Source of the DNA: Legionella sp.
GTDB lineage: Bacteria > Pseudomonadota > Gammaproteobacteria > Legionellales > Legionellaceae
Length of the DNA: 52,259 bases
NCBI GenBank assembly: GCA_033791145.1
Contig: JASJHH010000176.1
Location: 1-52,259 of the forward strand
Reading direction: 5' to 3'
Numbering within the stretch: position 1 is the first letter of the stretch; each line of letters opens with the position of its first letter. Below are positions 12,001 to 15,000 of the stretch, piece after piece. The position numbers were made by a program.

Positions 12001-15000
12001 ATATGGATTTTATATAATTTACTGAATGTTCGACATTTTTGTAAATATGTAGAGGTGATCTTGCCCAAAAAAACAGACACCTCACTTTAGCTTACTCGCT
12101 AGATTTTGTCCTCCAGTAACGCTCGGCTTTTTCTCTCCCTACGTACCGCGCTTCATGCGGGGTATCCAGCCAAGTAGCTTATTTAAACCACTGGATGCCG
12201 CGGACAAGCCGCGGCACGTAGACGGGACGGGGGCTGTAGGTCAATTGTCAACAGCCCCTAGATGACCCGAATGAATTAGGCTAAATAGGTGCTTAGACCA
12301 TGCCTTGACAATGGATTCAAAATATTTAAGAGTGTTAATTCTTTTTTATGTGTTACACGATTTATGTAGAGATAAAAAACTACATCTAAGCGTTAAGTAA
12401 AAGGATTTATAATGGACAGTTTTAGCGAAAATGGATATATGATCACTGATTTTAATCAGTCAGGTTATTTGTTGGAAATACAAGAAATTATCACAGATAC
12501 TTTTTCCTGTAATCCATTATTAATTCATAAAACTGATATTGATTCGCATCAACGATTGTTGTTCATGAAAAAAGCGAAGGATATAATTCTAAAAAAACAA
12601 TTAATTAAAAAATTTCTATTAGATAATTTAGACTCTTTTACTCAGATGATGGGTTCGGATATCGATGTGCAGTCGGATATACATCTAAGAGTATCACGTC
12701 CTAATATAGAAAGTGATTTTATTGACTGGCATCGTGATACATTTTATGGGAATTCCCTTTGGGAAATAAACGTATGGATTCCTATTTTTCCACTAGAGAC
12801 TGGGGCGGGGTTAATGCTTATTCCAGGTTCGCATCTAAGATCAGGGAATAATGTTCGAACGATTCAAGATGAAAATTCATTTCGTAAAACAGTGACTAAG
12901 GGGTCATTAGCGAATGAGTTAGGTTATACATATGCTTCTAAAACAGACGATCTAATCACTGCAGAAGCACCAACATGCGATACATTGTTGACACCAAAAT
13001 TTGGGCAAGGGATTATTTTTTCTGGACACACAGCTCATCGGGCTTGTAACAACTCATCTAGCACCAGAATATCTATCGATTTTCGTTTGAAACATATGTT
13101 AGCTGAGACAAATACTAAGTCCGGTTATTATCAGCCTTTAATTAGGAGTTTTATTACAAATTGTATTGAAAGAATGATTGAAGTGAATCATGTGAGTGAC
13201 GGCCTTATAAAAGAAGGGGTGTAGTCATATGTTATTGATCTTGAAACAAAAAAAGTCATTGAAAAATGAATGAATTTCAGGCGAAGATTAATCTCTTTAC
13301 AGAGAAATTACAGAATCAAACTCAAGTACCTTTATGGGCGATTGCGGATGAATTTTTGATTCGCGCCATCCCCTTAAAACGCCCCCCTAAATGGGGCCCT
13401 AGAAAAAAAGTACTACATCAAGTAATGAAAATCATGAGTATGTTTAAGTTGGAAGCCTTTGCTTTGTTTTTTGTCGGTTTGCGCGAGATTCTATTAGTTT
13501 GTAGGCGGATCTCAATATATAAGCTAAAAAAAAATATTGAAGTAGCTGAGGTCAACTATCAGAGAGTATTTGCTGGATTTGGCGCATCGAGTGCAGATTG
13601 TCTTTATCAGGATTATAAAAAGGAGAGTCAAGCTCCCTGTTTGAGGATTAATTGGGATACACAAGAAGGGATTGCAGTGTTAGGAAAAATAAAGAAAAAA
13701 ACAGCAATTCTAAAACTTTTGTCTAATATTTACGGTTTCAGAAAGAAATTCAAACAGGCAATTCCTGAGATTAGTAATAATTACGATCTTTTTTTAACGA
13801 TTTTTGCCTCAAATATTGGAACTTATACGATTTATCAATTAATTTGGAAGTTGGCAGAACAAAAAGGTATAAAAGAAATTGCATTTTTAGCTCCAAGTAG
13901 AGCAGCATTTGCGGCAACAGAAAGACAAGCGTTATCAACACGTTTCTTACAGCACGGACTCTTGGGGCAAGGCATACTTTTTCCTAAATTTACTTCTATT
14001 CAGGCAATCACAGTGTATGAGGCAAATTATTTAAGCCAAATATTTTCTGACACAATCGTGCATCGTTCAAAAATAGAAAATAATCTTCGTAGCCCTAAAA
14101 CTAGAACGGTGCTACTTTTATCCCCCAATTTACTTTTAAATGCCAAAGAATTTACAAGGTGGGCGAGACAGTTTAATTTAAATATTGTCATTCGGCCTAC
14201 AATACGTGTAACTGATGAAGAGCTTTTAGAAATAGAAACACAGTTTGAGAATAGCACATTGGATAATTATCTCTTATCTTTAGAGCAGAGTTTAAAAACA
14301 TGGAAGCCAATGTTTATTGTTGCCTGGAATTCTACGGGACTTGCGACTGGCCTAGAGTTTGGGTGCTTGCCAATCAGCCTTTGTGCTGAAAAAGAGGGTA
14401 GCGCGGTCTGGGCTATGATTTATCCCATGAGAGAAGCGGTCCTTTTTTGGCCCCAACAGCGTATATTACTTGAGAAAACAATTAATAGCACGAATGTTTA
14501 CCTGGATGAAGTTGAGCGGCTCCAAAGTGTTGCCCTGGTGTAATTGCTTAAATTAAGTTTCCAAAAATCCCTCTAGTTCTGGCTCATAGATATGTTTTAT
14601 TGGCGCGAGATAACCGCATAGCGTTTGCATAACAATGTGACAAAACATTGCGTGTACATCTTCAGATATTTGCATATCATGAATATTTGCATGCACTAGG
14701 TATTGAGCGCATTGTTTTAGTTTTCCTCCGTCATAACCACACATTGCGAGGGTTTGTGCTTTTTGTTGGTTGGCATACTCTACGGCTTTAATCACGTTTT
14801 TAGAGTTACCACTACCTGAAATGGCAATTACCAAATCTCCTGGTTGCAGAATATTTTTAAGCTGCTCAATAAAAACATCTTCGTAGCTAATATCGTTAGC
14901 ATAAGCGGTGATTAATCCCATATTATCGACTAAGGTTCTGCCGCGAAAAGGGATACCTGTTGCCTCTGGAATCATTTTATTCCAATCAGTAATATAGTGC

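What the first reader, a model, noticed from the sequence alone, without database searches (positions are those of the whole stretch)
12139..12258. REP/BIME-like element: two inverted 31-nt hairpin units plus a third GC hairpin in the neuA-phyH spacer
**Seen in the sequence.**
- A GC-rich island sits in an otherwise AT-rich 394-bp intergenic gap.
- Unit L (12139-12169) and unit R (12191-12221) are inverted relative to each other and 21 nt apart.
- Each folds into an 8-bp stem with a 5-nt loop. R is perfect: TGCCGCGG-ACAAG-CCGCGGCA.
- The unpaired flanks CTGGA and CGTAG are conserved in all three copies in the window; the third copy is in feoB.
- GGGGCTGT-N13-ACAGCCCC follows at 12230-12258.

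**Established knowledge.** Enterobacterial and pseudomonad REPs are imperfect palindromes adjacent to a conserved GT[AG]G tetranucleotide. They often pair in inverted orientation (BIMEs) and are mobilised by RAYT (Y1, IS200/IS605-like) transposases.

**Inference.** This is a REP/BIME-type or MITE-like element family of this genome. It lies exactly at a boundary between compositionally different gene modules, so it may mark a recombination junction or act as an mRNA stabiliser or insulator. The position of GTAG relative to the hairpin differs from what I remember for E. coli REPs, so the analogy is tentative.
Basis: partly seen in the sequence, partly recalled or inferred. Interest (0 to 1): 0.62.

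Follow-up and report, generated by a model that had tools for sequence, protein, structure and literature searches.

The report
Hairpin-ended miniature transposon remnant (Legionellales)
The two inverted GC hairpins and the "third hairpin" are one decayed ~160-nt miniature transposon, cut down from a previously undescribed Legionella-group insertion sequence that carries a transposase, a small GIY-YIG nuclease gene and a conserved GTAG-tagged hairpin at each end; it resembles an E. coli-type REP but is not one.

Summary
Two inverted 31-nt hairpin units lie at 12139-12169 and 12191-12221, a third copy lies in frame in feoB (38981-39011), and there are no other copies in the window.

The family is real and large: at least 119 loci in reference genomes, almost all Legionellales. 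It is strongly extragenic (16% of copies in long ORFs against 75% of random positions) and mostly forms inverted "head-head" dimers. In a sample not selected on the hairpin, 7 of 8 stem pairs show compensatory changes.

The RAYT/REP reading is not supported. GTAG lies 3' of the hairpin rather than 5', and no RAYT gene is linked to the units.

The units are instead subterminal modules of a ~1.3-kb IS5-family insertion sequence: outer inverted repeat GGGCGTGTTGACAATT with TA flanks, then a unit, a GIY-YIG gene, a DDE transposase and a second unit. This IS has many internally deleted derivatives (MITEs).

The window's "third hairpin" is that outer IS5-type terminus. Its 8/8 pairing is unique among 51 such ends. 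The left arm of the window copy is decayed and the window holds no transposase, so the copy is probably immobile.

The GIY-YIG gene is tightly linked to the hairpin (33 of 39 loci) and is under purifying selection (dN/dS about 0.09). Its role is unknown.

The parts
12101..12138 (.). Left outer arm of the MITE, decayed. It begins TAG|ATTTTGTCC where intact relatives have TAG|GGCGTGTTGAC, and it has about 13 nt of deletions.
   Evidence: Colinear alignment with the complete MITEs in L103 and L097 (A4). A loose end in run X1 shows a sister copy with an intact left arm, GTTGACAATTGG...GAAAGCCTCGG. The left boundary is approximate.
12139..12169 (-). Unit L: a 31-nt GTAG-tagged hairpin of the ATGAA-loop type, with 7 of 8 stem pairs.
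   Evidence: (44.5 bits, E 2.6e-7).
12170..12190 (.). 21-nt spacer of the head-head dimer (CCAAGTAGCTTATTTAAACCA). It is a remnant of internal IS sequence next to the units.
   Evidence: The same spacer class occurs in L103, L097 and L088. Its 3' part resembles the IS sequence just inside the right unit...TTTAACTTGACCA|CTGGA.
12191..12221 (+). Unit R: a 31-nt GTAG-tagged hairpin with a perfect 8-bp stem and loop ACAAG.
   Evidence: (55.6 bits, E 1.4e-9).
12222..12242 (.). G-rich linker between unit R and the outer terminus.
   Evidence: Aligns to the linker of L103 (GCGGGACGGGGGCTGTAGCC) and of the IS ends. The 8/8 pairing with the terminus is unique to this copy among 51 ends.
12243..12258 (-). 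Outer terminal inverted repeat of IS5-family type (GGGGCTGTTGACAATT read inward), followed by TAG at 12259-12261.
   Evidence: Colinear with both ends of the full-length IS in L042, L027 and L093 (A3). It has the same core as the ISSpu10 terminus GGGCCTGTTGAT with a CTAG target. 47 of 51 such termini are followed by TA. It is the only such terminus in the window.
38981..39011 (+). Solo unit inserted in frame in feoB. It encodes (L)DPADKPRGV(G) in the linker after the G domain.
   Evidence: 53.9 bits. The insertion is absent from 12 FeoB homologues and present in the 85%-identical orthologue (A5). The orthologous DNA keeps all 8 stem pairs and differs only by 2 synonymous loop changes.

Best explanation
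Window positions ~12101-12260 are a non-autonomous, internally deleted derivative (a MITE) of an IS5-family insertion sequence found across Legionellales. The parent IS is ~1.25-1.35 kb. Reading inward from each end it has a TA target duplication, an ordinary IS5-type terminal inverted repeat (GGGCGTGTTGACAATT), a linker of about 12 nt, and then a 31-nt module consisting of an 8-bp GC stem, the loop ACAAG and the unpaired flanks CTGGA and CGTAG. Between the two modules lie a 96-aa stand-alone GIY-YIG nuclease gene, whose stop codon is 13-21 nt from a module, and a 249-aa DDE transposase gene. Shown: the architecture, its recurrence in many genomes, deletion intermediates, a nested insertion with a target duplication, and selection on the hairpin and on the nuclease. 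Inferred: the DDE transposase, supplied in trans, moves full-size MITEs through the outer repeats. Also inferred: the hairpin module is recognised in folded single-stranded form by a protein, most plausibly the linked GIY-YIG nuclease, and this keeps it conserved and lets it persist or spread as bare dimers and solo units. The window's copy has one intact end and one decayed end, and the window has no transposase, so it is most likely an immobile relic with no demonstrated function at this locus. The feoB copy is a solo module that has been fixed in frame in a tolerant inter-domain linker since before two species diverged.
For: Family and structure: at least 119 loci, almost all Legionellales, and 215 model hits in them. 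In loci chosen only by GIY-YIG similarity, 7 of 8 stem pairs have double changes, 98% of cells are paired and 0 of 500 shuffles match; flanks and loop are conserved at 1.4-2 bits. Parent IS: three independent insertions align end to end, with homology stopping at the TA-flanked outer repeats (A2). The transposase scores 260 bits against NF033580 (cutoff 110) and PF01609 gives 1.5e-21; the GIY-YIG domain PF01541 gives 3e-15. The outer repeat matches the ISSpu10 repeat type. Window copy: R plus the 'third hairpin' is colinear with IS ends (A3), and the whole element is colinear with complete MITEs in L103 and L097 (A4). Outer termini follow 51 of 212 units, against a 0.45% null. Deletion series: L109 keeps the 5' end of tnp, L125 keeps its first codons, and L161, L082 and L153 keep only GIY-YIG. 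Mobility: in L113 a MITE interrupts a GIY-YIG gene with an 11-12 bp duplication of a site that is single in L042 and L093 (A7). The repeat is multi-copy in the source metagenome, with depth rising from 3.9 to 12-43 and contigs breaking at the units. Nuclease linkage: 33 of 39 GIY-YIG loci at >=72% identity have a unit 13-21 nt downstream and 22 of 41 have the transposase, against 1 of 39 and 0 of 39 for more distant homologues. 33 of 34 GIY-YIG genes are intact, with median dN/dS 0.085 and 0.093 among transposase-less copies.
Against: Most head-head dimers (52 of 64) and most solo units lack the GGGCGTG-type outer repeat. Several other arm families exist, so simple 'IS to MITE to decay' does not explain why bare hairpins stay near-perfect. 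The one documented insertion (L113) has an 11-12 bp duplication and different termini, unlike the TA flanks of the main type. No biochemical or transcript data exist, and the roles of the transposase and the nuclease are inferred. The window's left arm is only weakly recognisable, so the left boundary is approximate.
Confidence: 0.72

Rival explanations
1. Classical REP/BIME (REPIN): the hairpins are substrates of a RAYT (Y1 HUH) transposase encoded elsewhere in the genome.
For: There is a short GC palindrome with a conserved GTAG tag, and the family is extragenic and mostly in inverted dimers 8-82 nt apart. This is the general description of GTAG REPs (PMC3733652). One RAYT-like fragment exists in a Legionellales-like MAG (L050, E 5e-15).
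Against: GTAG is 3' of the hairpin in all copies, whereas RAYT guide tetranucleotides are 5' and the inverse strand is inactive. The single RAYT-like hit is 4.2 kb from any unit and has none beside it. The units are instead flanked by, and co-inherited with, a DDE transposase and a GIY-YIG gene. Legionella is not among the REP hosts listed in PMC3733652.
Confidence: 0.05
2. The hairpin pair plus the GIY-YIG nuclease is the true selfish unit, a REPtron-like system driven by a structure-specific nuclease. The IS5 element is only one of its vehicles. Bare dimers and solo units are copied by nuclease-initiated repair or gene conversion rather than by DDE transposition.
For: GIY-YIG and the unit are linked in 33 of 39 loci, but the transposase is present in only 22 of 41. 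Transposase-less unit-GIY-unit elements occur with various arms (L082, L153, L161). The nuclease is under strong purifying selection even without tnp. Most dimers lack IS5 termini. The same hairpin core sits inside several unrelated arm families and with two kinds of target duplication. Stem covariation with conserved single-stranded flanks implies recognition as a folded strand, which a DDE transposase does not need.
Against: No activity is known for UPF0213-type GIY-YIG proteins. Units always lie inside the outer repeats of full-length copies, as expected of integral IS ends. No bare-unit insertion with an empty-site comparison was found. Transposase-less forms can be simple deletion derivatives: L125 retains tnp codons.
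Confidence: 0.18
3. At this locus the element is kept because it serves the host, for example as an RNA hairpin that stabilises the upstream cytidylyltransferase mRNA or attenuates read-through into the 2OG-oxygenase gene.
For: It lies between two co-oriented genes. Its stable hairpins would be transcribed on read-through: -61.5 kcal/mol for 171 nt, z -2.1. REPs and Coxiella QMITE2 are proposed to act this way.
Against: There is no T-run terminator and no promoter match in the spacer. No RNA data exist for this organism. One arm is decaying. A related population carries a different 77-nt version at the same site, which argues against strong constraint.
Confidence: 0.1

Closest known systems
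Coxiella burnetii QMITE2 (Wachter et al. 2018, PMC5896051)
   Same: It comes from the same bacterial order. It is a MITE of ~165-175 bp built around a GTAG-tagged palindrome. A few full-size copies have TIRs and direct repeats, and many small copies are bare REP-like hairpins. It is mostly intergenic or 3' of genes, with occasional in-frame overlaps with ORFs.
   Different: QMITE2 has 7-13 bp direct repeats, whereas the main type here is flanked by TA (only the L113 variant has 11-12 bp). QMITE2's origin and transposase are stated to be undetermined, whereas a parent IS is identified here. QMITE2 is a target of IS1111, which was not seen here.
GTAG-tagged REPs / BIMEs / REPINs mobilised by RAYT (Di Nocera 2013, PMC3733652; Corneloup 2021, PMC8266576)
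   Same: A short GC palindrome with a conserved terminal GTAG and a short conserved motif at the untagged end. Stem variants are compensated. Head-head dimers have 20-100 nt spacers, there is an extragenic bias, and there are occasional intragenic copies.
   Different: The tag is on the 3' side of the hairpin. No RAYT is associated. The units are embedded in the ends of a DDE-transposase IS and are linked to a GIY-YIG gene.
IS5-family insertion sequences of the ISSpu10 type and their MITEs
   Same: The transposase scores 260 bits against NF033580 and is ~66% identical in DNA to ISSpu10-like genes. The terminal repeat is GGGC-TGTTGA and the target is CTAG/TA.
   Different: ISSpu10 is ~0.88 kb with plain ends and one gene. 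The Legionellales element adds a GIY-YIG ORF and a structured 31-nt hairpin module, sometimes with reiterated half-units, inside each end. No plasmid copy with these additions was found.
Rickettsia palindromic elements (RPE) inserted in frame in genes
   Same: A palindromic repeat unit is tolerated as an in-frame peptide insertion in a conserved protein (feoB here). Five of the six reading frames of the unit are open.
   Different: The sequence family is unrelated (RPEs are CGTC-tagged per PMC3733652). The unit here is only 31 nt and adds about 9-11 residues.

Membership tests
GTAG-tagged REP superfamily (descriptive class, Di Nocera 2013) | Short palindrome (6-13 bp stem, short loop) ending at one side in a conserved GTAG | tested here: met
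   8-bp stem and 5-nt loop. CGTAG is conserved at 1.2-2 bits in a sample not selected on it.
GTAG-tagged REP superfamily (descriptive class, Di Nocera 2013) | High copy number, predominantly extragenic, frequently in HH/TT dimers | tested here: met
16% of copies lie in long ORFs against 75% of random positions. There are 54 HH, 4 TT and 1 HT dimers. Per-genome copy number was not measurable.
RAYT-mobilised REP / REPIN (REPtron) | GTAG guide tetranucleotide 5' of the palindrome on the active strand | tested here: not met
   All copies read hairpin-CGTAG, and the other strand begins CTACG. The requirement is taken from PMC8266576.
RAYT-mobilised REP / REPIN (REPtron) | A RAYT (Y1 HUH) gene flanked by the REPs in the same genome | tested here: inconclusive
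   tblastn with E. coli RayT against 119 loci plus the window gave one fragment (L050), 4.2 kb from a unit and not flanked by units. Whole genomes could not be scanned.
MITE (non-autonomous derivative of an IS) | Small, non-coding, bounded by terminal inverted repeats shared with an autonomous IS | tested here: met
   The window element is ~160 nt with no ORF. Its right end is colinear with the IS ends and its left arm is decayed. There are 11 complete MITEs with both termini, and deletion intermediates exist.
MITE (non-autonomous derivative of an IS) | Target-site duplication and evidence of insertion (filled versus empty site) | tested here: met
   At family level, 47 of 51 termini are followed by TA, and L113 shows a nested insertion with an 11-12 bp duplication against intact genes. 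For the window copy itself, TAG follows the right end and TAG precedes the decayed left arm, and no empty site was found.
IS5 family (parent element) | DDE transposase of the IS5 family with matching terminal repeats | tested here: met
   NF033580 at 260 bits against a cutoff of 110; PF01609 plus DUF4096. The terminal repeat is like that of ISSpu10. No such gene lies in the window itself.
Coxiella QMITE2 | Sequence homology to QMITE2 copies of C. burnetii RSA 493 | not testable with these tools
Only the architecture was compared.

The most novel reading that the evidence does not exclude
A stand-alone GIY-YIG (UPF0213-type) nuclease and the GTAG-tagged hairpin it sits next to form a new kind of REPtron-like system. 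In this reading a structure-specific nuclease, not a Y1 transposase, maintains and disseminates REP-like hairpins, riding in IS5 elements and leaving bare dimers and in-frame solo units behind. This would give a mechanism for RAYT-less REP families such as Coxiella QMITE2 and possibly the CGTC REPs.
Probability: 0.2. Interest if true: 0.8.

Novelty: new variant of a known kind. Interest (0 to 1): 0.55.

Why it matters
REP-like hairpins are usually assigned to RAYT transposases, but many families have no such enzyme, and the origin of Coxiella's QMITE2 is stated to be unknown. Here a REP-like, GTAG-tagged hairpin family is traced to the ends of a DDE-transposase insertion sequence that also carries a conserved nuclease gene under purifying selection. 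That gives a concrete and testable parent for such repeats in Legionellales, an order that includes human pathogens. It assigns a first genomic context to a UPF0213-type 'hypothetical' nuclease. It also shows that these hairpins can become stable in-frame insertions in a conserved transporter. For annotation, the family explains recurrent peptide strings such as DPADKPRD and SRGLSAGS and the contig breaks seen in Legionella-like assemblies.

Tried and rejected
- Rfam search of the region: only a sub-threshold snoRNA match (19 bits against a cutoff of 45), which I took as chance.
- My first degenerate pattern was mis-spaced and found nothing. It was corrected.
- Exact-protein look-up of the neuA-like product: not on record.
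- A 'protein family with the element inside its ORF' (8 loci) proved to be an artefact of shared MITE-encoded peptide.
- Intrinsic terminator or promoter function: no matches in the spacer.
- The third hairpin as a conserved structure: rejected, because 8/8 pairing occurs only in the window among 51 ends.
- Compositional boundary at the element: rejected.
- Viral origin: no hits in viral contigs.
- Plasmid copies of the composite IS: only ordinary IS5 transposase genes matched.
- Empty site for the window insertion in metagenome runs: not found. One run has a 77-nt variant instead.
- DNA for the FeoB homologue P0007 was not retrievable.
- PHROGs gave nothing for the nuclease.
- The high-GC hits from the genome scan (Leucobacter, Granulicella, Phycisphaeraceae) score low with the model (26-32 bits, or below the reporting threshold), and I treated them as chance.
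Full report
1. THE OBSERVATION

The sequence is as described. Unit L (12139-12169) and unit R (12191-12221) are inverted 31-mers separated by 21 nt. R is CTGGA-TGCCGCGG-ACAAG-CCGCGGCA-CGTAG with a perfect 8-bp stem. L, read on the minus strand, is CTGGA-TACCCCGC-ATGAA-GCGCGGTA-CGTAG with 7 of 8 pairs. A third copy lies at 38981-39011 and has compensated outer stem pairs, CC...GG in place of TG...CA. Each unit folds as predicted, with z-scores of -3.4 to -4.3. A covariance model run without filters finds exactly these three copies in the window. GGGGCTGT-N13-ACAGCCCC is present at 12230-12258.

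The flanking genes are a NeuC-type epimerase, a CMP-sugar cytidylyltransferase-like gene (11304-12017) and a 2OG-Fe(II) oxygenase (12412-13224). The window comes from an uncultured Legionellales-like organism in marine-sediment metagenomes.

2. THE FAMILY IS REAL, LARGE AND STRUCTURED

Almost all are Legionella, Tatlockia, Legionellaceae, Coxiellaceae, Berkiellales or unclassified 'Gammaproteobacteria' MAGs. The named species include L. bozemanae, londiniensis, santicrucis, steigerwaltii, resiliens, quinlivanii, steelei, nautarum, massiliensis, maioricensis and tucsonensis.

- The model finds 215 copies in these loci.
- Only 16% of copies lie inside long ORFs, against 75% of random positions.
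- Copies form 54 head-head dimers (GTAG tags outward), 4 tail-tail and 1 head-tail. Spacers cluster at 16-24 nt and about 45 nt.
- Nothing beyond the 31 nt is universally conserved except a G after the tag.

Because my pattern fixed most stem bases, I repeated the covariation test on units found next to GIY-YIG genes, which were chosen by protein similarity alone. In that sample 7 of 8 pairs show changes on both sides and 98% of cells are paired. No shuffle out of 500 reaches the observed values, and the slid controls collapse. The unpaired flanks (C)TGGA and CGTAG and the loop ACAAG are conserved in sequence. A conserved single-stranded sequence around a covarying stem indicates recognition in folded form.

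3. IT IS NOT A RAYT-TYPE REP

The family fits the descriptive class of GTAG-tagged REPs (PMC3733652), although Legionella is not mentioned in that paper. In RAYT systems, however, the GTAG guide lies 5' of the palindrome on the active strand and the inverse strand is inactive (PMC8266576). Here the tag is always 3' of the hairpin.

tblastn with E. coli RayT against all 119 loci and the window gave one fragment. It lies at a contig edge in L050, 4.2 kb from the nearest unit, with no unit beside it.

4. WHAT THE UNITS BELONG TO

Clustering the ORFs near units revealed two recurrent neighbours: an IS5-family DDE transposase and a 96-aa GIY-YIG protein. In L042, L027, L093, L016, L041 and L113 they lie together between an inverted pair of units.

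Three independent insertions were aligned (A2). Homology runs past the units on both sides to an outer inverted repeat (GGGCGTGTTGACAATT) and stops at a TA on each side. That repeat is the ordinary IS5 type, since ISSpu10 ends CTAG|GGCCTGTTGATCTTT. Of 51 such termini, 47 are followed by TA.

The autonomous element is therefore TA, outer repeat, ~12 nt, unit(-), GIY-YIG, transposase, unit(+), ~12 nt, outer repeat, TA, in about 1.25-1.35 kb.

Deletion derivatives of every size exist:
- L109 keeps the 5' end of the transposase gene.
- L125 keeps its first codons.
- L082, L153 and L161 keep only the nuclease gene.
- Eleven head-head dimers have both outer repeats and no gene.

In L113 a ~170-nt MITE with the same hairpin core interrupts a GIY-YIG gene. 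It is flanked by an 11-12 bp duplication of a site that is single in the intact genes of L042 and L093 (A7). This is direct evidence of insertion.

5. THE WINDOW'S ELEMENT REINTERPRETED

R plus the 'third hairpin' (12191-12260) aligns base for base with both ends of the full-length IS (A3). The 3' arm and loop of that hairpin are the outer repeat (GGGGCTGTTGACAATT on the minus strand, 12243-12258), and TAG follows it. The 8/8 pairing is unique to this copy; the other 50 ends show 6 of 8 or fewer.

The whole stretch from ~12101 to 12260 is colinear with complete MITEs in L103 and L097, including the heterodimer arrangement of an ATGAA-loop unit on the left and an ACAAG-loop unit on the right, and the 21-nt spacer class. 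The left arm, however, is mutated and shortened (A4).

The window contains no other terminus and no transposase or nuclease remnant. In run X1 the assembler's depth rises from 3.9 to 12-43 over the units, and contigs branch there. One sister copy has an intact left arm. Run X2 carries a 77-nt variant in place of 131 nt at this site.

There is no terminator-like or promoter-like signal in the spacer, and the GC step lies at 11.0 kb, not at the element. The copy is best read as an immobile relic. A role as an RNA hairpin between two co-oriented genes remains possible but is untested.

6. THE FEOB COPY

The unit starts on a codon boundary and encodes LDPADKPRGVG. Twelve FeoB homologues of 632-637 aa have a 9-residue gap there, in the variable linker after the G domain. 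The 85%-identical orthologue (GCA_040265055.1) has the insertion (A5). Its DNA keeps all eight stem pairs and differs by two synonymous loop changes, while the flanks are more diverged. The insertion is therefore old and stably retained. Five of the six frames of the unit are open.

7. THE NUCLEASE

The next set of loci was chosen only by similarity to the GIY-YIG protein.

| GIY-YIG identity | Unit 13-21 nt after the gene | Upstream inverted unit | Transposase upstream |
|---|---|---|---|
| >=72% | 33 of 39 | 23 of 41 | 22 of 41 |
| <72% | 1 of 39 | 0 of 39 | 0 of 39 |

Of 34 genes, 33 are intact. Median pairwise dN/dS is 0.085, and 0.093 among transposase-less copies, with the catalytic-motif columns conserved. 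The closest solved relatives are UPF0213 'hypothetical proteins' (1ywl, 1zg2). The linkage and the selection are shown. The function is inferred: it may recognise or cleave the folded unit, or help the element in some other way.

8. WHAT REMAINS UNEXPLAINED

Most dimers (52 of 64) and most solo units lack the GGGCGTG-type terminus. Many carry other recurrent arms or reiterated half-units and extra ...CACGTAGG tags. The L113 insertion has a long duplication, unlike the TA of the main type. The same hairpin core therefore travels in several kinds of shell. This fits either rapid divergence of IS ends around a conserved functional module, or an independent mode of spread for the hairpin-nuclease module.

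9. COMPARISON AND NOVELTY

The closest described element is Coxiella QMITE2. It has the same size and a GTAG palindrome core, with a few full-size and many bare copies, and its parent and mechanism are stated to be unknown (PMC5896051). Homology could not be tested.

Bulk surveys report MITEs in 99.6% of Legionella genomes without describing this family (PMC11602168). Literature searches for a Legionella REP/RAYT or for an IS5 carrying GIY-YIG found nothing specific.

I rate the finding a new variant of a known kind (an IS and its MITE family), with an unusual feature set and a plausible, unproven link between REP-like hairpins and a GIY-YIG nuclease.

Noticed in passing
Protein P0007 (FeoB homologue, 68% identity), residues ~169-178; same linker as window 38981-39011: P0007 reads ...ALTPTPRGLSAGGDD..., which matches the opposite-strand reading frame of the unit (PTSRGLSAGS). 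This suggests a second, independent in-frame insertion in reverse orientation at the same FeoB linker in another lineage.
   Followed up: partly
L087 5-1837 (minus strand): A 611-aa ORF with a weak Peptidase_C58-like N-terminus reads through an entire ~170-nt MITE in frame (residues ~365-443) and through a second MITE-derived piece at its C-terminus. The apparent 'protein family' linking 8 loci was only this shared MITE-encoded peptide.
   Followed up: yes
L121 10530-10565; window 39007-39040: Immediately after the feoB unit, the tag and following bases (CGTAGGCTCAGA) recur about 21 nt downstream. This gives a 7-residue tandem repeat in the protein (GVGSE / SVGSD) and may be a partial duplication of the unit's 3' end.
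   Followed up: no
L014, L019, L031, L073, L084, L094, L099, L104, L117 (Alphaproteobacteria MAG C8_concoct.bin.36); L090, L105 (Holosporaceae MAG); L040 (Parachlamydiaceae MAG): High-scoring units with shared arm sequences occur in MAGs labelled as other phyla or classes of amoeba-associated bacteria. This reflects either horizontal spread among bacteria sharing protist hosts or mis-binned Legionellales contigs.
   Followed up: no
L113 130-625: A MITE with termini CAGGGCCAACGC...GCGTTTGCCC is nested inside a GIY-YIG gene with an 11-12 bp target duplication (TGTTCCGGGATT). That is much longer than the TA flanking the main IS5-type ends.
   Followed up: partly
L082 1360-1920; L160 downstream of 392; L153 flanks of 1229-1647: The arms contain tandem repeats of half-units (for example GCTGTGAAGCCGCGGCACGTAGG, 2-3 times) or several extra ...GTACGTAG... 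tags, like the reiterated subterminal binding sites of some transposons.
   Followed up: no
L161 852-1264: A minimal ~480-nt element (arm, unit, GIY-YIG, unit, arm) whose two units carry a fully compensated variant stem (TGCCCTGA...TCAGGGCA) and a different outer arm. No transposase is present.
   Followed up: partly
window 12127-12257, run X2: A related population has 77 other letters in place of these 131 nt at the same site. The sequence of the variant was not returned.
   Followed up: no
window ~11000: GC content steps from ~0.32 (8-11 kb, NeuB/NeuC-like genes) to ~0.39 at about 11.0 kb, in the 313-nt gap before the cytidylyltransferase-like gene. This is 1.1 kb upstream of the element.
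   Followed up: partly
L050 7-222 (minus strand): A RAYT-like gene fragment (46% identity to E. coli RayT over 72 aa) lies at a contig edge in a Legionellales-like MAG and is not associated with the hairpin units.
   Followed up: partly
window 38324-38479: The mechanical feoB ORF starts 52 codons upstream of the conserved MRFLLVGNPNAGKT start. The true start is probably the ATG at 38480, and in relatives a feoA gene lies immediately upstream.
   Followed up: partly
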